Source: a virus. From it: 64,000 nucleotides of DNA. The translations under genes and the position numbers were made by a program. This document shows, piece by piece, positions 9,215 through 57,851 of this stretch; the first letter of the stretch is position 1; every line of letters starts with the position of its first letter. The stretch is from the IMG/VR virus record IMGVR_UViG_3300020051_000004, one strand, 5' to 3'. The notes below the pieces were generated by a model. That model was given only the letters and a program-made list of their open reading frames with translations, had not been told where the DNA came from and did no database searches.

Positions 9215-10191
9215 TGCGAGCCTTTCGAGTAACGATCAACTGCTGGATAGCCGCCAAAAGACATACTTCTATCTTCTTCTGGGATACCAAAACACAATGG
9301 GTTAGCGATTGTTGATCCGTCAATGTATGAAATTCCTGTTTGAAGAAATCTTTTATCGCAAGCAAAAACCTTTTTTGAGCATCCTTCTTTTTCCCAAGTA
9401 GTTGGACTTTGCGTAGGAGAGTTTGTCTCGTTGGAAACATGATCAACTGTTGAAACGTAGTAAGTTTTATAAGGGTCTTTGCCCAAAGGAACAAAGCAGT
9501 GGTCGCCGCTAGAATAGTTATGGCCGTATTTCCATTCTTTTTCAGCGTCTTGAAAATTAAATTTACCTGTAGGAGCAACTGAAAACGGCGTTCCATCTTC
9601 TTTTTCAACAAGCGGCCCCCAATAATTGCATCCGCATCCGCGATACTGAAAAGAGCAATAATTACTAGAGATTTTCCTCCCAGGAATTGTGTAGTCGCTC
9701 AAATCGTAGGGAACCGTGCATTCAAATTCTACCATGTCTCGGTTTTCGCCGAGTTTTTGAGACAAAACGAACGTATCAACAATCTCTTGAGTTGGGTCAG
9801 GAGTTCCAAAAGGATTTTCGCCGCCATCAAAATTTCGATCATCCAAGAATCTCATTTGAGTGCGAATGCGAGCAATTTTCGCATCTTTCAAGTCGTTCTT
9901 TTTGCGGAGAATCTGGGAGATTAGCAGGTTTTCATTGCTGATGCGGAGTTTTGGCCGTTGGATTCTTCCTAGCGAACCATATTCAAGATTCTCGATTTCA
10001 ATAGGAAGAGCGTTATATTGAACGCCTTGCCAGTAAATAGTGTTGCCATACCCATTTGTGGACGAGCACATAGGGTAAAAGCTACTTGGCTCATTTACGG
10101 GATCGTAGTAAAGGCGAAAAAACTCCACCTGCTGACTTCCAGGGTCGTTAATGGAAAGTAGTCCTGCAATAAATTTTTCGGAAAGAGCCAT
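9211..10191 (-). CDS. minor tail protein, lambda gpL-like
   Basis: WQGVQYNALPIE, RPKLRISN, RIRT..RFLD..NF, and Fe-S cysteines (CSFQYRGCGCNY; CSKKVFAC). Confidence 0.9.
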   Translation of the reverse strand: MALSEKFIAGLLSINDPGSQQVEFFRLYYDPVNEPSSFYPMCSSTNGYGNTIYWQGVQYNALPIEIENLEYGSLGRIQRPKLRISNENLLISQILRKKNDLKDAKIARIRTQMRFLDDRNFDGGENPFGTPDPTQEIVDTFVLSQKLGENRDMVEFECTVPYDLSDYTIPGRKISSNYCSFQYRGCGCNYWGPLVEKEDGTPFSVAPTGKFNFQDAEKEWKYGHNYSSGDHCFVPLGKDPYKTYYVSTVDHVSNETNSPTQSPTTWEKEGCSKKVFACDKRFLQTGISYIDGSTIANPLCFGIPEEDRSMSFGGYPAVDRYSKGSQ

Positions 10192-17707: not shown

Positions 17708-18121
17708 ATGAACATTTTCCAATTCATGGCCGAAAGCCCGTTGTTGACCTTTTTTCTCTTTTGGATGACAACCAATATGTCATTTAAGGCGTGGAATCGT
17801 TTAATGAGAGTAATTAATATCCGAAAACATGGCTGGCCACCTCCCCACTGCGACGCAGATGGAGATTTTAAACCAGAACAAGAAAAAGACGACGAAAATT
17901 AATCCAACCCCTAAAACAATATGAAATCCCTCCTCAACAACTGGTCCTACCAAGAAACCCGCCTCGCAAACGCCCGCAAACAAATGTGTGATCGCGGCGC
18001 AACAAGTGATGCCGCAATCGCCGAAACGCTCATTGACCAAAAGAAAAACAACCGCCGATACGATGGTATTATGAGTAAAGGTCAATATCGAAGGACTGTT
18101 AGTTCCTTTGTGTGAACAATT

Positions 18122-18254
18122 TTCGCCGTGCCTCCGCTGGCCGATCTGGAAGGATGCCCTGACCCGTTCGTTCGGGGAAAAGAGTGGCCGATAGATACAG
18201 AAAGTCTAAAGTAGCGTAACATCCACTCCTTGCGGAGAACTTTAGAGCGGCGAA
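18122..18254 (+). ncRNA. putative structured ncRNA A (~133 nt)
   Basis: Closed by TTCGCCG/CGGCGAA; internal TCTAAAGT/ACTTTAGA stem containing CTCC-TTGC-GGAG; intergenic; follows AACAATTT. Confidence 0.6.
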
Positions 18255-18269
18255 TTAAATTTCGAGATT

Positions 18270-18342: not shown

Positions 18343-18428
18343 GAGCACATGGTAGATAAAGGCGGAATGGTATGTCGGGCTAGAAATAGCCTCTACAAGT
18401 GAAGGTTCAACCCCTTCTGTGCTCGCCA
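18343..18428 (+). ncRNA. tRNA-like RNA lacking an anticodon arm, CCA encoded
   Basis: Acceptor GAGCACA/TGTGCTC-G-CCA; T arm GAAGG-TTCAACC-CCTTC; interior has helix GTAGA/TCTAC enclosing a D-like hairpin GGCG-GAATGGTA-TGTC and GGCTA-GAAA-TAGCC. Confidence 0.75.
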
Positions 18429-18435
18429 ACAATTT

Positions 18436-18534
18436 GAGAACGTAGTTCAATGGTAGAACATAGAAATCCGAGACGCCGAAAGGTGGAGTAGGTATGCAAA
18501 TGCTAGATGGGAGTTCGATTCTCCCCGTATCTCA
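18436..18534 (+). ncRNA. tRNA-like RNA with the anticodon arm replaced by GNRA-capped hairpins
   Basis: Acceptor GAGAACG/CGT(A)TCTC; canonical D arm GTTC-AATGGTA-GAAC; T arm GGGAG-TTCGATT-CTCCC; ~45-nt central domain with GCC-GAAA-GGT and GTAT-GCAA-ATGC. Confidence 0.75.
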
Positions 18535-18832
18535 ACAACCACCAATTCGCCGACAATATGAGTACATGGACACACATCGAAGGAGAACACACCTCCAAAA
18601 AAGCCTCAATCCGCAAAATCATCGAATTCGTTCTCGACGGAGAAGATGTAGTTGCCGAATACGACCATAACGAATTCTGGGTTCGTTTTGAGCATGGCGG
18701 GGAAAAAACCGCTAACAGCATTAGCGAATCATTGATTACTTTAAGAGTTGCGACAAAAACGCGCGTTTAAATTTAACGGCAACAATTGAATATTCAGTTT
18801 GACAGTTGGCAGGCTATCCACTATATTCACAC

Positions 18833-19741
18833 ATGACTAAATACAAAGCAATCATCCTACCCGAAAAAGTTTTTATCGCAGACTCCCTTAATAAGGATTG
18901 GTGCGCAGTAGCCCTAGATAAAGATTTTCTTTTTGACGGAAGAAATGCACTACCAACTTTAAAGAAGGGCTGGTACGAATTGCCAAATCTTCCAAAGAAA
19001 GTGGAGAAATTAATTGCGCCGCCCAAAATTATTTCTTTTTATAAGCTCAAAGAAGGATTCGTTGCAACAGAAAAACTTCCAGAACGCCTTCCAGAATACT
19101 TCTTCAATTGGGACGGCGATGAAGAAGAATACAACAATGCCGAAATCAAAGGCTTATATGATCCAGTTTACGAACAAAAGGAGCCATACTTTGAAAACGT
19201 AGAATTTGAGATTGAAACAATTGCTCACAAAGGCTCAAGCTGGAAATTCCTCGCGGCCCCAAAAAATGTTCAACATCTCTTAGTTGACGAAATCATTAAG
19301 TTGCCAGAACTTTTGCAAGATGAGCATTGCTTCTTATCTTCGGAAGAAAGTTATTGCCGCATCAGAGACTTTGTAAAGTTAAATATTAATCCACGGGTTG
19401 CTTATGTGAGTTCTGATTATAATTTTCATTTTGTAGTTTCTAAAAAGATCCCTCTACACGAAAAAGAAAAATATCGAAAGTGCTTAAACATTTTCGCTAA
19501 GCGGCCAAAGTATGTCGATGACTACCGAGTTAACCGCAGCATTGAAGTTTATAACTTAACTCCAAACGAAAAAAACAACCGAGAATACCAAAACTCTCAG
19601 TTAGCTCCAAAATTTGAAGGCGCGAACTACGAAGACTTGGAGAACAATATCAATAACTACTTGGCAGAACTTATTGAAAAAATCAACGAACCAGTGCAAG
19701 ATTGTCCGCATTGCAAAGGTAGAGGAGTTGTCGCACCATGA
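18833..19741 (+). CDS. hypothetical protein with C-terminal CxxCxGxG zinc-ribbon motif
   Basis: Start reassigned to ATG 18833 behind TTGACA(18799)-17-TATATT; ends DCPHCKGRGV. Confidence 0.65.
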   Translation: MTKYKAIILPEKVFIADSLNKDWCAVALDKDFLFDGRNALPTLKKGWYELPNLPKKVEKLIAPPKIISFYKLKEGFVATEKLPERLPEYFFNWDGDEEEYNNAEIKGLYDPVYEQKEPYFENVEFEIETIAHKGSSWKFLAAPKNVQHLLVDEIIKLPELLQDEHCFLSSEESYCRIRDFVKLNINPRVAYVSSDYNFHFVVSKKIPLHEKEKYRKCLNIFAKRPKYVDDYRVNRSIEVYNLTPNEKNNREYQNSQLAPKFEGANYEDLENNINNYLAELIEKINEPVQDCPHCKGRGVVAP

Positions 19742-50831: not shown

Positions 50832-50921
50832 GAGCGCGTGGCGGAATAGTAGACGCGGCGCATAGTAGGACGCCAAAACCGAAACGTGCTTGCATTGCAC
50901 GTTCAAATCCTGCCGCGCTTT
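50832..50921 (+). ncRNA. tRNA-like RNA with an elongated non-canonical anticodon arm
   Basis: Acceptor GAGCGCG/CGCGCTT; Leu-type D arm GCG-GAATAGTAGA-CGC; T arm GCACG-TTCAAAT-CCTGC (one mismatch); central arm GCAT-AGTA-GG..CC-GAAAC-GTGC. Confidence 0.65.
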
Positions 50922-54623: not shown

Positions 54624-55034
54624 ATGACTGACTACCAACAACAAGCTACCGACTTCCTCGCTAAACACAACATTGCCTTTTCCTTTAAACTGACAAACAC
54701 CAAAACGCCAGACTGGGAAAATAATGGCCAACAGAGAAATCACTTTGTCGCTACCCTTAAGCAAGGCAAAAAGAGAATGTCGTTTGATTATTTTGATTCA
54801 ATCAAGAATTTTGAAAGCGGCAAGACAGAAATCACCGCTTATGATGCCTTGACCATTTGTTCGTCCGAAATTAACTGCCCTGACTCGTTTGAAGATTTTT
54901 GTGGCGAATTTGGATACGATGAAGATTCGCGCAAGGCCGAAAAAACTTTTCGCGCCCTGAAAAAATCTTCAGATAAACTGAAAAAATTCTTTGACACTGA
55001 GGAAATCCGAGATGATCTTTCGGAAATTCAGTGA
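54624..55034 (+). CDS. phage hypothetical protein
   Basis: SFEDFCGEFGYDEDSRKAEK motif; own promoter at 54590. Confidence 0.65.
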   Translation: MTDYQQQATDFLAKHNIAFSFKLTNTKTPDWENNGQQRNHFVATLKQGKKRMSFDYFDSIKNFESGKTEITAYDALTICSSEINCPDSFEDFCGEFGYDEDSRKAEKTFRALKKSSDKLKKFFDTEEIRDDLSEIQ

Positions 55035-55040
55035 ACAATT

Positions 55041-55177
55041 TGTCTGCCGTTCTTTGCTGGACGATAGCGTGCAAGACCTACAAAGTCCGTCGCACAATGC
55101 TAAAGCATAAGAAAGCAACAGCGCCCAACTAATCGGTAATAACTAGCGGGAACCCCGAATTCTTATGGCGGCAGACA
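55041..55177 (+). ncRNA. putative structured ncRNA C (137 nt)
   Basis: 10-bp closing stem TGTCTGCCGT/GCGGCAGACA, 8-bp CATAAGAA/TTCTTATG arm, CTTTG/CAAAG arm; follows AACAATT. Confidence 0.65.
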
Positions 55178-57851
55178 CTCCTTTTATCAAACGCCGAACG
55201 GCTCCTGAATAATATGAAAGACTCCCTAAGATTCGTTTACGAGAAAGTGGAAAACGGCTGGAAAAAAGTGTACGAAGCTCAGAGCTTCCAGAATGCTCTT
55301 TTCATGGCCAAACAAATGAAATTAATTGCGCCGAAGAAAGAATTTTGTGTGAATAGTTAGATTTTTTCTTGCGTTGGGCAAATAACGTGATACATTGATT
55401 TATAATTGTATGATGAACCGCAAAACTTGCAATCATTCCTAGAAACGTAAAAAAAATCAATTCTTCCGCAGTAATATGAAAAAATCCAAAGACGCACAAA
55501 GAATCATTGTCGCACTTTACTTGCGAAAAAGACGCAAGCGCGAACATCTGAGAATTATTCAGAGAGATGATTGCAGCTATCCAGATTACAAAAAATGGAA
55601 ACAAAATCCTGAACTCTGGCAAAAAATTCTTAGTGACTGTAGAACTACATTGGCAGAACGTCATAATACACTTCAGGTCGCTAGAAGAGCCTTGTATAAT
55701 ATTTGGGGTTGACAGGTTTTAGAGAGGTGATCCAATAACGCTTGACGGCGCAAAGAAATCTCTCTAATACTTGGGGCGCTTTCAATTGCCAAGTATGAAG
55801 GGCGCGGACTAGATGGATACGAAGAGCTAGAAAAACAAATCTCCGACTTGCAAAAGAAATTGCAGAAATAATTTGCGCCGCATTAAATTTTAATCTATAC
55901 TCTACTCATGAGCGCCGACAATGCAATTTACATTCGACCATTAAAAACTGGTGGCTATGCCGTCAAATGTATTTCTTCATTATATCCAGAATACGGAAAT
56001 GACGAGGGTATTGATGAAGAGTTTAAAGATGCGCCAGTTTTCGCCACATTAGATGAAGCTTGGGAGTACGAAGAAAAGATTCAACAAAAATATGAAGATT
56101 CTGGACGTTATATTGAGTATGACTCAGAAGTTTTGACTCGAAAAGATGGATTTTAGTTGACACGGCCAATTTAATAGCCTAATATCTACCCATGAACAAC
56201 GAATACACTCTTGAAGATTTCCGCAAGGTTGCCAAAGTCGGGCGAACAAAGAAAGCCAATGGTTTTCTCTCTGGTTCTAGACTAATCAGCGCCGTTGCTG
56301 TGCGTTGGAATAGCAAAGCAGGAAAGCGTGAACTGCATTACGATTTCAAAAAGGGCTGCGATTATGTCAAAGAATGCTTTGAAGAATTGCAAAAAAGGTG
56401 CATAATCCGCGATTGTTTGATGCCAGCGTAATTAATTAACGCCAAAAAACCAAAACACTTGACAATAATTAACTCTAATGTCATTCTATGAAATAAACCT
56501 TTCTAATTGCGATGGATGCAATGCGACAATTCACGTTTTTGAGAACGGCAAAATTGATCGTAGGGGAAATTCCTACAACAAAGTGAAGCGCCTAGCTAAA
56601 TTTTGCAAAGAATCAGAATATGATGAGGAAATGCCAGAATGGGCGAAAACTGCAATGCGAAAACTGGAAAAGTGAAGAAAATACTTGCTAAGTATTGGAT
56701 CAAATGATAGACTCCACGCATGAAAACATTCACAGTCCGCGATTTCTACCACTATTCGCAGCTTGACGGCGGAAAAACGTATTTTGATTTGCCAGTTGTT
56801 TTTGAGGGAGGATGGAATGCCGTTCACGATTTCTGTCAAAATAAAGGATATTCGTGGAAAAAAGATTCCTCAATTTTCGGCGGATATTATGTTGACAATG
56901 AGGGGAAATGCCTTATGATTGTGTAATGAAACTCCATACACTCAGACTAGGCGGTTGCGTTTCTAGGGCAGAAGCTCTTTACAAAATTAAAGCGTGGAAG
57001 AAAGCGGCCAAAAGCTTCACTATAATTTCCATAAGCCGTTATTGGTATGGTGTGCAAAATAAGCACTTGAACACTTTTCGTTTTGAGGTAGAGTACTACT
57101 CAAAGAAAAACGAAGGCCGCTATCAAATTCCACTTGACAAAGTTGGCGTTTTATGTGGAGCGAGTAGAAGAAAACACGGCGGAAACCTTGACAAGAGGGC
57201 AAAAATATGAAAGTCTTTCTTTTCCATTATAGTTACCATAAAGGCAAATGGTCAAGCCGTTCTAGCTGGCCCCCTAAGCGAATAATTGCAGAAGATTTAC
57301 AAGCCGCAAAAGAAATTTTCGGCAAAAAACGCCGTGGCGCAGGATTTAGACTTGACAAAATTGAAGATGTGACAGGTAAACCGCACAAAATACCAGAAAA
57401 AACGGTTTTTTAGCTTGCGGGCAAAAGTTTAATGTGATATATTCAAGTCTTATGTTTGATCCTGCTTTAACTCACCATTACCTTGTTCAAGAGGCTCGCC
57501 GCTCTGGTTCTGTCTTAACTTTTGAAGAAAAGGTTAGTCATTTAGTGCGAAAGTATGGAGTTTTGCGCTCTCTTGCCGCTTTGGCAGTGAATTATGCAGA
57601 AAATCCTTGATTAATTCGCTAAACAATTGTAGAGTTTAATTATGAATCGCCGCCTTAAAACCGCCAAACAGAAACTCTTTAAAGCTATGACTCTGATTGA
57701 ATCAGAGTCAACAAAAAGCTCTGGCGATAGAAAAAACGAGCTTTTCAATCAGGCGAGTGATATTCAGGAAATTATTTCGGCGATTGATAGAATTTTGATT
57801 TTGGACGAAAAATAACTTGCGCCGCCCATAATTCCAAACTATATTTAATCT

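What the first reader, a model, noticed from the sequence alone, without database searches (positions are those of the whole stretch)
18436..18534. tRNA scaffold whose anticodon arm is swapped for a ~45-nt GNRA-capped domain
Seen: textbook D and T arms and an acceptor stem with one bulge. The anticodon position carries TAGAAATCCGAGACGCCGAAAGGTGGAGTAGGTATGCAAATGCTA, which can form GCC-GAAA-GGT and GTAT-GCAA-ATGC hairpins. It is too short for a group I intron and has no obvious bulge-helix-bulge. It resembles an engineered tRNA scaffold displaying an aptamer. Inference: natural use of a tRNA chassis to stabilise and display a functional RNA domain.
Basis: partly seen in the sequence, partly recalled or inferred. 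Interest (0 to 1): 0.8.

Follow-up and report, generated by a model that had tools for sequence, protein, structure and literature searches.

The report
Phage tRNA look-alike with conserved arm
This 99-base stretch is a real gene for a tRNA-shaped RNA that cannot read codons, because a strongly conserved 44-base arm replaces its anticodon arm; it belongs to a widespread family of phage RNAs that I could not find described, and its function is unknown.

Summary
Window 18436-18534 (+) has a tRNA acceptor stem (one bulged A), D arm and T arm. It scores 31.3 bits on Rfam tRNA (cut-off 29), and ARAGORN does not call it. The 44 nt in the anticodon position are not an intron and not decay.

Pattern scans of IMG/VR found 53 distinct full-length homologues, plus about four further variants that I did not model. 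A covariance model built here gives them 55-106 bits; ordinary tRNAs score 40 or less. Each of five large phage genomes checked (136-365 kb) has one copy. 21 of 26 modelled pairs show compensatory changes.

The tRNA stems change freely, while the arm's unpaired bases (AAGU-CC-GAGA ... GAGUA-GG-CA..CAAAUG) are almost invariant. GAGA/GAGUA has the sequence signature of a sarcin-ricin/loop-E (S-turn) motif.

The family has no conserved discriminator base, no U33 and almost never an encoded CCA, although 82% of neighbouring tRNAs have one. No phage protein co-occurs with it, and no Ro60 gene was found.

My best reading is a non-decoding RNA, matured like a tRNA, whose arm docks a conserved host factor. 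The partner is unknown. Rfam 15, the phage isolate collection (by BLAST only) and the literature I searched hold nothing like it. This scan has noted other phage tRNA mimics on other DNA, but not this family.

The parts
18436..18442 (+). Acceptor stem, 5' strand (GAGAACG)
   Evidence: Pairs with 18526-18533. All 7 acceptor pairs show changes on both sides across the family.
18445..18459 (+). D arm: GUUC / AAUGGUA / GAAC, preceded by U8 and A9
   Evidence: Rfam tRNA alignment. In the 53-sequence alignment G18 is kept in 50 and G19 in 51.
18461..18463 (+). Basal helix A, 5' strand (UAG), at the base of the replaced anticodon arm
   Evidence: Pairs with 18503-18505 (CUA). 100% paired in the family with GC/AU/CG/UA types; length 2-5 bp. 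The near-identical copy L110 has UGG/CCA.
18464..18469 (+). AAAU-CC (AAGU-CC in most members): two-A junction, then a purine that pairs with 18493, a probably bulged U, and CC pairing with GG at 18491-18492
   Evidence: AA, U and CC are invariant in 53/53, but the scans behind most members required ...AGUCCGAGA, so only AA is free of that bias in most of them. G-to-A at 18466 changes together with C-to-U at 18493 in two separate lineages.
18470..18473 (+). GAGA, 5' strand of the internal loop
   Evidence: Invariant, including in 14 loci (about four distinct sequences) found with a pattern that did not specify it.
18474..18485 (+). Hairpin CGCC-GAAA-GGUG
   Evidence: All 4 pairs covary. The loop varies in sequence and length in the family.
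18486..18492 (+). GAGUA-GG, 3' strand of the internal loop plus GG; with GAGA it has the AGUA/GA signature of a sarcin-ricin/loop-E (S-turn) motif
   Evidence: GAGUA in 53/53 (required by the scans behind most members). Variants GGGUA and, once, UAAUA turned up in the scan that left the loop free. The motif assignment is an inference from sequence; no 3D test was possible.
18493..18502 (+). UAUGCAAAUG: conserved 3' junction strand (family consensus C-A-N-N-C-A-A-A-U-G), a relic of an anticodon loop
   Evidence: Three A's are kept in 51-53 and the final G in 53 of 53 sequences, and no search pattern specified them. The position matching U33 is not conserved. Rarer variants have CAAGA or UCACUU.
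18503..18508 (+). Basal helix A, 3' strand (CUA), followed by a 3-nt variable region (GAU)
18509..18525 (+). T arm GGGAG-UUCGAUU-CUCCC
   Evidence: The stem covaries (4 of 5 pairs). T-loop UUCGA is kept in 48-53 of 53 and G53:C61 in 52 of 53.
18526..18534 (+). Acceptor stem, 3' strand CGUAUCUC (A at 18529 bulged) and discriminator A (18534); no encoded CCA

Best explanation
18436-18534 encodes a member of a phage-borne family of non-decoding tRNA-shaped RNAs that I could not find described.

Shown by comparison:
- The acceptor/T minihelix and the D/T elbow are kept as structure.
- The anticodon arm is replaced by a rod. It consists of a 2-5-bp basal helix, an asymmetric junction (AA opposite A-NN-CAAAUG), a short G:C / bulged-U / C:G / C:G helix, a GAGA/GAGUA internal loop, a 3-5-bp helix and a variable cap.

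Inferred:
- The tRNA frame makes the RNA a substrate of the host's tRNA maturation enzymes. RNase P would cut the 5' end. An RNase Z-type cut would make the 3' end, because there is no encoded CCA. Host CCA addition may follow. The frame would also make the RNA stable.
- The internal loop folds as an S-turn and, with the invariant junction bases, forms a docking surface.
- The arm is nearly invariant in phages that share no proteins, and no phage protein co-occurs with it. So the partner is most probably a conserved host component, such as translation or tRNA-handling machinery. The phage RNA would bind, titrate or redirect it during infection.

The partner and the benefit to the phage are unknown.
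For: 1. Family: exact-pattern scans of IMG/VR returned homologues. Model R1 scores 53 distinct full-length sequences at 55-106 bits and the 400-plus ordinary tRNAs in the same loci at 40 or less.
2. Structure: on a MAFFT alignment, 93.8% of cells pair against 32-44% when partners are slid, and 21 of 28 pairs have compensatory changes. On the model-fitted alignment of 53 the figures are 96.8% and 21 of 26. RNAalifold independently recovers the acceptor, D, T and arm helices.
3. Orthologue test: a 148-kb IMG/VR phage (handle G005) is syntenic with this window (proteins 40-88% identical). It has the RNA at the same place, before the Gad1 gene. Every stem differs with compensation, and the loop bases are identical apart from one co-varying pair. 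A metagenome fragment (L110) has a 93% identical copy within flanks that do not align.
4. Not decoding or charging: position 1 is U20/G18/A14 and the discriminator is A25/C16/U9/G3. There is no U33, the loop is 6 nt and the basal helix is 2-5 bp. Encoded CCA occurs in about 3-4 of 54 members against 433 of 530 neighbouring tRNAs. Arrays that hold the RNA also hold normal tRNA-Trp, -Cys and -Leu.
5. Context: it usually lies on the same strand 4-10 nt from tRNA genes in arrays of up to 31 tRNAs. Each of five large phage genomes has one copy.
6. No phage partner: there is no recurrent neighbouring gene. The only proteins shared by three genomes that carry the RNA are GDP-mannose dehydratase and ThyX.
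Against:
- The S-turn assignment rests on sequence signature only. RNAalifold prefers a register with a symmetric 5x5 loop.
- Most members were found with patterns that required parts of the arm, so its invariance is partly due to how they were found. One scan that left the loop free still found GAGA invariant, but it added only about four further distinct sequences.
- The host-factor idea is an argument from absence at BLASTP sensitivity in three genomes.
- About a quarter of loci have no tRNA nearby, so co-processing with tRNAs is not universal.
- A few members lack the G18/G19 D loop.
Confidence: 0.6

Rival explanations
1. It is a Y-RNA-like partner of a Ro60/Rsr-type ring protein. A tRNA-like module would be joined to a Ro-binding helix, as in bacterial and phage YrlA, but with the ends at the acceptor stem.
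For: The invariant 5' strand AAGUCCGAGA contains GUCCGA, six of the seven bases of GGUCCGA. Ro60 contacts that motif mainly on the 5' strand of Y RNAs, and YrlA carries the related GNCGAAN0-1G (PMC4201824, read). The helix here also probably has a bulged pyrimidine. YrlA likewise places its protein-binding stem where a tRNA has its anticodon stem. Earlier notes of this scan report Ro60-linked tRNA mimics in other phages; those are leads, not evidence.
Against: The Pfam TROVE family (PF05731) is absent from all five phage genomes checked that carry the RNA, while the control genomes gave hits. No YrlA (RF02553) match reaches the cut-off, and no Rfam YrlA match was found in the window. The 3' strand is GAGUAGG, not the UUGAC-type partner. 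The motif runs away from the tRNA body, whereas in YrlA it runs towards it, so this is not a simple circular permutation. Unlike YrlA, no gene is linked within 4 kb. A six-base match found after the fact has roughly a 1% chance.
Confidence: 0.12
2. It acts in cis as a processing signal. The tRNA-like fold would recruit RNase P or RNase Z to cut the polycistronic transcript, here to release the 5' end of the Gad1 mRNA. The arm would be incidental.
For: It lies 272 nt upstream of the Gad1 gene in the window and 39 nt upstream in the relative G005. No promoter-like site lies directly before it. Processing guided by a tRNA fold is a known principle.
Against: A processing signal needs only the acceptor/T minihelix. 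It does not explain near-invariance of 25 or more arm bases across unrelated phages, one copy per genome, or a location inside tRNA arrays that already supply such sites.
Confidence: 0.08
3. It is a working but aberrant tRNA. Either it decodes with a branched anticodon stem, or the branch is removed as a small intron to give tRNA-Cys(GCA) in this phage.
For: The junction strand looks like an anticodon loop of a tRNA that reads UNN codons (xCA or CAA followed by A37, A38). The D arm is identical to phage tRNA-Trp D arms. It passes Rfam's tRNA cut-off.
Against: The loop is mostly 6 nt. The U33 position is U, A, C or G. The triplet at the anticodon place varies (CCA, CAA, GCA, UCA, ACA) with no matching change in the acceptor or discriminator. 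The basal helix of 2-5 bp would give a 4-7-bp stem after excision. There is no bulge-helix-bulge, no group I intron match, and 44 nt is far too short for group I. CCA is not encoded although it is in the neighbours. Normal isoacceptors sit in the same arrays.
Confidence: 0.06
4. It is a decaying tRNA pseudogene, or a chance resemblance to a tRNA.
For: The Rfam score is marginal (31.3 against 29), the acceptor stem has a bulge, and ARAGORN is silent.
Against: There are 53 distinct homologues with compensatory changes in all variable stems, the orthologue is retained in a relative whose proteins are about 60% identical, and a 93% identical copy sits in unrelated flanks.
Confidence: 0.02

Closest known systems
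Canonical tRNA (Rfam RF00005)
   Same: It has a 7-bp acceptor stem, U8, a D arm with G18 and G19, a T arm with UUCGAUU and G53:C61, and a short variable region. It sits in tRNA arrays on the same strand.
   Different: There is no 5-bp anticodon stem with a 7-nt loop, no U33 and no fixed anticodon. A 44-nt conserved rod stands in that place. The discriminator base is not conserved and CCA is almost never encoded.
YrlA / bacterial and phage Y RNAs bound by Rsr (Ro60) (Rfam RF02553; Chen et al. 2014, PMC4201824)
   Same: Both join a tRNA-like module to a conserved protein-binding stem at the position of the anticodon stem. The GUCCGA 5'-strand motif resembles the Ro60 contact GGUCCGA. M. smegmatis YrlA is cut by RNase P and receives CCA.
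   Different: Here the ends lie at the acceptor stem, not at the binding stem, and the motif has the opposite polarity relative to the tRNA body. The partner strand differs (loop-E-like). No Ro60 gene is nearby or anywhere in five genomes, and no RF02553 match was found.
Phage T4 stable RNAs, species 1 and 2 (rnaC, rnaD)
   Same: They are small stable RNAs of unknown function encoded at the end of a phage tRNA cluster. rnaC ends in a T arm and an acceptor-like stem.
   Different: They are not homologous: R1 gives 18.8 bits over the T-arm part only. They are longer (119-139 nt) and have no D arm and no AAGUCC-GAGA/GAGUAGG arm.
Engineered tRNA scaffolds (an RNA of interest inserted in place of the anticodon arm; from my own knowledge)
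   Same: The design principle is the same: acceptor, D and T arms are kept for processing and nuclease resistance, and the cargo replaces the anticodon arm.
   Different: This one is natural, conserved and single-copy in phage genomes, and its cargo is one specific conserved motif.
Sarcin-ricin / loop E (S-turn, bulged-G) motif of 23S and 5S rRNA (from established knowledge)
   Same: The 3' strand AGUA faces the 5' strand GA(G), flanked by Watson-Crick pairs. CCGA.../...AGUAGG is also the sequence at the base of E. coli 5S rRNA loop E; that comparison is from memory and was not tested here.
   Different: The arm is a short rod on a tRNA body and not part of rRNA. An extra G-A pair is present and the cap is variable. 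The fold has not been verified.

Membership tests
tRNA (RF00005), functional decoder | Cloverleaf frame: acceptor stem, D arm and T arm with conserved tertiary bases | tested here: met
   Rfam alignment at 31.3 bits against a cut-off of 29. U8, G18, G19, the T-loop and G53:C61 are conserved in the family.
tRNA (RF00005), functional decoder | 5-bp anticodon stem and 7-nt loop with U33 and a defined anticodon | tested here: not met
   44 nt stand in place of 17. The basal helix is 2-5 bp, the loop-like strand is mostly 6 nt and the U33 position is variable. ARAGORN makes no call.
tRNA (RF00005), functional decoder | Identity elements for one synthetase (discriminator base, acceptor pairs) and a CCA end | tested here: not met
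   The discriminator is A25/C16/U9/G3 and pair 1:72 takes any type. CCA is encoded in about 3-4 of 54 members against 82% of neighbouring tRNAs. CCA addition after transcription could not be tested.
Intron-bearing tRNA (group I or bulge-helix-bulge) | A group I core (P1-P9, 200 nt or more) or two 3-nt bulges 4 bp apart, with excision giving a canonical tRNA | tested here: not met
   The insert is 44 nt, with no Rfam intron match at E up to 10 and no bulge-helix-bulge by inspection. Excision would give a 4-7-bp stem and a 6-nt loop.
YrlA / Y RNA (RF02553) | Match to the family model, a Ro60-binding helix formed by the 5' and 3' ends, and a Ro60 (TROVE) gene within about 4 kb on the same strand | tested here: not met
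   No RF02553 match in the window or above the cut-off in five genomes. No TROVE match in five genomes. The ends lie at the acceptor stem. Only the six-base GUCCGA is shared.
tmRNA | tRNA-like domain plus pseudoknots and a tag reading frame | tested here: not met
   Neither ARAGORN nor Rfam reports a tmRNA here, and 99 nt leave no room for the tag frame and pseudoknots of a tmRNA.
T4 rnaC / rnaD | Sequence and structure homology | tested here: not met
   R1 on the T4 cluster gives 18.8 bits over the T arm of rnaC only.
Sarcin-ricin / loop E motif | AGUA opposite GA(N), flanked by Watson-Crick pairs, with a bulged G and an S-shaped backbone | tested here: inconclusive
   The sequence signature is met and conserved. 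The 3D fold cannot be tested with these tools, and RNAalifold offers another register.
New family defined here (model R1) | tRNA frame plus AAGU-CC-GAGA-[hairpin]-GAGUA-GG-CA-NN-CAAAUG in the anticodon position | tested here: met
   The window scores 89.8 bits; note that the window sequence was one of the 14 used to build the model. Independent support comes from the exact-pattern hits and the orthologue in G005.

The most novel reading that the evidence does not exclude
Unrelated large phages share one tRNA-framed RNA whose invariant S-turn arm imitates a binding site of the universal translation or tRNA machinery (for example an rRNA loop-E or factor-binding element). The RNA would then capture or redirect a core host factor during infection. 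That would be a natural 'tRNA scaffold' effector RNA and a new class of phage takeover or counter-defence molecule.
Probability: 0.2. Interest if true: 0.85.

Novelty: new variant of a known kind. Interest (0 to 1): 0.7.

Why it matters
Phage tRNA clusters are usually read as codon-usage or anti-defence tRNA supplies. This family shows that they also carry a conserved, single-copy RNA that uses the tRNA shape for something other than decoding. It has a sequence-invariant arm shared by phages with no proteins in common.

That gives a concrete target, well supported by covariation, for finding a new host-phage RNA-protein interaction. It adds a natural precedent for the engineered tRNA scaffold. 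It may also help explain the old puzzle of stable non-tRNA RNAs in phage tRNA clusters, such as T4 species 1 and 2. The covariance model can be used at once to annotate these genes, which tRNA finders miss or call pseudo-tRNAs.

Tried and rejected
- Nucleotide searches of the phage isolate collection with the window region and with three family members found nothing beyond D-arm or T-arm matches to ordinary tRNAs. BLAST cannot bridge the variable hairpin, so absence from isolates is not proven.
- The scan of representative bacterial and archaeal genomes with the GAAA-type pattern gave five chance hits, with no complementary hairpin and no tRNA frame.
- The Gad1 protein was used to look for relatives in IMG/VR: none were found.
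- T4 rnaC/rnaD were tested as relatives and rejected.
- The glutamine riboswitch, which has an E-loop three-way junction, was considered and rejected. Its AGUA lies on the opposite strand and there is no Rfam match.
- Hammerhead, k-turn, SRP helix 8 and T-box specifier readings were considered by eye and dropped because core bases or strand polarity do not fit. A resemblance of GGAAGUCCG to the RNase P P4 strand comes from memory, is untested and was set aside.
- A conserved neighbouring gene was looked for twice. Only spurious frames over RNA genes, homing endonucleases and one RNase H-like family in 5 loci turned up.
- Ro60 and YrlA were tested and not found.
- My first model had a three-way junction with a C-A/U-G mini-hairpin. 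I weakened it after RNAalifold and the G/C to A/U co-change pointed to a pair between the linker purine and the base after GG.
- Full-text searches for the motif and for anticodon-less phage tRNA-like RNAs found no description.

Full report
**Setting**

The window is part of a large tailed-phage genome. It encodes lambda-type tail tip proteins J and L, an amidase endolysin, ThyA, UvdE, a clamp-loader-like ATPase and a Gad1 (anti-Gabija) homologue at 18806-19741. It has no nucleotide relative among isolated phages. Its replication protein is only about 24% identical to anything there.

The finding lies in a gene-free stretch, 18116 to about 18557. That stretch sits between a 64-aa ORF and a 70-aa ORF that precedes Gad1.

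**Observation**

- 18436-18534 reads as a tRNA frame: a 7-bp acceptor stem with one bulged A, U8-A9, D arm GUUC/AAUGGUA/GAAC, T arm GGGAG/UUCGAUU/CUCCC and discriminator A.
- Rfam's tRNA model aligns end to end at 31.3 bits (cut-off 29). It skips 44 nt where it expects 17. ARAGORN does not report it.
- The minimum-free-energy fold of the single sequence is unremarkable (z = -1.4). The case therefore rests on comparison with homologues.

**A family**

- An exact 21-nt piece of the insert found one IMG/VR contig. In the alignment the insert was almost identical, but the acceptor, D and T stems differed with compensation.
- Degenerate patterns then found many more loci. One scan returned 80 loci, the most any scan here returned, so more may exist.
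- I built covariance model R1 from 14 sequences. It scores 53 distinct full-length members at 55-106 bits. The hundreds of ordinary tRNAs in the same loci score 40 or less.
- On the MAFFT alignment, 93.8% of cells pair, against 32-44% with slid partners, and 21 of 28 pairs carry changes on both sides. On the model-fitted alignment of 53 the figures are 96.8% and 21 of 26. RNAalifold alone recovers the acceptor, D, T and arm helices.
- Each of five large phage genomes (136-365 kb; four are at least 91% complete and one is 81%) holds exactly one copy.

**Orthologue in a relative**

- One of those genomes, a 148-kb IMG/VR contig (handle G005), is colinear with the window. Protein identities are 40-88%.
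- Its copy sits at the same place: after the homologue of ORF 17921-18115 and directly before the Gad1 homologue.
- All five stems differ with compensation:

| Stem | Window | G005 |
|---|---|---|
| Acceptor | GAGAACG | AAGCGUA |
| D stem | GUUC | GUGU |
| Basal helix | UAG/CUA | CUC/GAG |
| Arm hairpin | CGCC/GGUG | CGGC/GCUG |
| T stem | GGGAG | GAAAG |

- The unpaired arm bases are identical apart from one co-varying pair.
- A 1.4-kb metagenome fragment (L110) holds a 93% identical copy, and nothing else around it aligns.
- Two other carrier genomes share no protein with the window at E 1e-3. So the RNA is kept in at least three unrelated phage lineages.

**Anatomy of the arm**

Family consensus after the D arm:

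1. A basal helix of 2-5 bp, which covaries.
2. A-A.
3. G-U-C-C.
4. G-A-G-A.
6. G-A-G-U-A.
7. G-G.
8. C-A-N-N-C-A-A-A-U-G.
9. The return strand of the basal helix.

The linker purine and the base after GG change together (G with C, A with U) in two separate lineages: window/L110 against G005, and L015/L018 against the rest. So they very probably pair.

That leaves two registers. One has a bulged U followed by two C:G pairs and a 4x5 loop. The other, which RNAalifold prefers, has G:C, U-G, C:G and a 5x5 loop.

In the first register, GAGA opposite GAGUA has the signature of a sarcin-ricin/loop-E motif: AGUA facing GA, with a bulged G, flanked by Watson-Crick pairs. This is an inference from sequence. 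I could not test the fold.

The strand C-A-NN-CAAA-U-G looks like a shortened anticodon loop of a tRNA that reads UNN codons. However, its U33 position is variable and its two possible closing pairs show no double changes and 19% mismatches. I now read it as a conserved junction strand and not as a hairpin.

A caveat on invariance: most members were found with patterns that specify parts of the arm. Still, the A's and the final G of CAAAUG, and the C-R-C/G-Y-G pairs, were never specified and are conserved. A scan anchored only on the D arm and AAGUCC found GAGA in all 14 true hits. It also revealed the variants GGGUA and UAAUA and, in the junction strand, CAAGA and UCACUU.

**Not a decoder, not an intron, not decay**

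- Position 1 is U, G or A in similar numbers, and the discriminator takes all four bases.
- Removing the branch would leave stems of 4-7 bp and mostly 6-nt loops.
- The triplet at the anticodon place differs between members (CCA, CAA, GCA, UCA, ACA) with no matching change elsewhere.
- Arrays with the RNA also have ordinary tRNA-Trp, -Cys and -Leu.
- Only about 3-4 of 54 members have CCA at the 3' end. By the same loose test, 433 of 530 neighbouring tRNAs do.
- There is no group I or bulge-helix-bulge feature.

**Context**

- In about three quarters of loci the gene lies in or near a tRNA array (up to 31 tRNAs). It is often on the same strand 4-10 nt from a neighbour. tRNA-Tyr, -Pro and -Trp neighbours recur, but there is no fixed partner.
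- In this window and in G005 it is instead the last element of a cluster of odd T-arm-bearing RNAs. The two real tRNAs (Leu-UAA, Arg-UCU) are about 44 kb away.
- No protein gene recurs next to it.
- The only protein families shared by three carrier genomes are GDP-mannose dehydratase and ThyX.

**Comparison with known systems**

- The nearest described concept is YrlA, the tRNA-like Y RNA bound by Rsr/Ro60. The lead came from earlier notes of this scan. I read the paper (PMC4201824).
- The invariant GUCCGA here matches six bases of the Ro60 contact GGUCCGA. The protein-binding stem of YrlA also occupies the anticodon position.
- The rest does not fit. The partner strand and the polarity differ. 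There is no RF02553 match, no TROVE gene in five carrier genomes while controls gave hits, and no linked gene.
- T4's stable RNAs rnaC and rnaD are analogous in location but not homologous.
- Rfam 15 has no other match. Full-text searches found no description.

**Mechanism**

- Shown: this is a structured RNA gene with a tRNA frame under selection for structure and an arm under selection for sequence. It is single-copy and occurs in unrelated large phages.
- Inferred: it is matured by RNase P and an RNase Z-type cut, and it is stable because of the tRNA fold. The arm is a docking surface. The arm is invariant across phages that share no proteins, so the partner is more likely a conserved host component than a lineage-specific defence nuclease or a phage protein.
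- What the phage gains is open.

I give 0.6 to this reading as a whole, 0.12 to a Ro60-type partner, 0.08 to a purely cis processing role, 0.06 to a working or spliced tRNA and 0.02 to decay or chance.

**Verdict**

Its GNRA and tRNA-Cys details are not. This is a new family within the known kind 'tRNA mimics'.

Noticed in passing
window 18343-18428 (+): A second tRNA-like RNA lies 10 nt upstream. It has a perfect 7-bp acceptor stem, a T arm, discriminator G and an encoded CCA, but a GGCUA-GAAA-UAGCC hairpin and no anticodon loop. It scores 26.7 bits on Rfam tRNA, below the cut-off. In L110 a different odd tRNA-like RNA with encoded CCA occupies the same position.
   Followed up: partly
window 18116-18262 (+); L120:14680-14790: The first element of the gene-free stretch is closed by UUCGCCG/CGGCGAA. 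It is conserved in the syntenic relative G005 (74% identity, with a 40-nt deletion in its middle), so it is probably another RNA gene. It has no Rfam match and the single-sequence fold is not exceptional.
   Followed up: partly
L120:14680-15394 (G005 54680-55394): The relative's gene-free stretch is about 710 nt. It holds at least three further elements with textbook T arms and closing acceptor-like stems, none called as tRNA. This is a cluster of tRNA-framed RNAs directly upstream of the family member and Gad1.
   Followed up: partly
window 50832-50921 (+): ARAGORN reports a tRNA-like gene with a four-base 'anticodon' (agta) in an 8-nt loop and a long extra arm. Rfam does not report it at its cut-off.
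   Followed up: no
window 18806-19741 (+): This is a full-length Gad1 (anti-Gabija) homologue: Pfam E 1e-69, about 36% identical to Gad1 of the SPbeta/phi3T phages, in a phage otherwise unrelated to them. The RNA cluster directly precedes it in both this phage and G005.
   Followed up: partly
L001:2512-2603 and L001:4636-4710: In a 27-tRNA array, ARAGORN misses an apparent tRNA-Tyr (GUA loop, encoded CCA) next to the family member. The array also holds a CUA-anticodon (amber-reading) tRNA.
   Followed up: no
L006:8356-8445, L007:8119-8210, L014:380-473, L020:10628-10718: Several arrays carry overlong (90-94 nt) genes that ARAGORN calls tRNA-Ile(UAU). L006 also encodes a phage tmRNA at 9357-9718.
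   Followed up: no
L030:2909-3047 (T4 rnaC): T4 species 1 RNA contains GAGUAGCG twice and ends in a T arm plus an acceptor-like stem. It is not homologous to the family by the model.
   Followed up: partly
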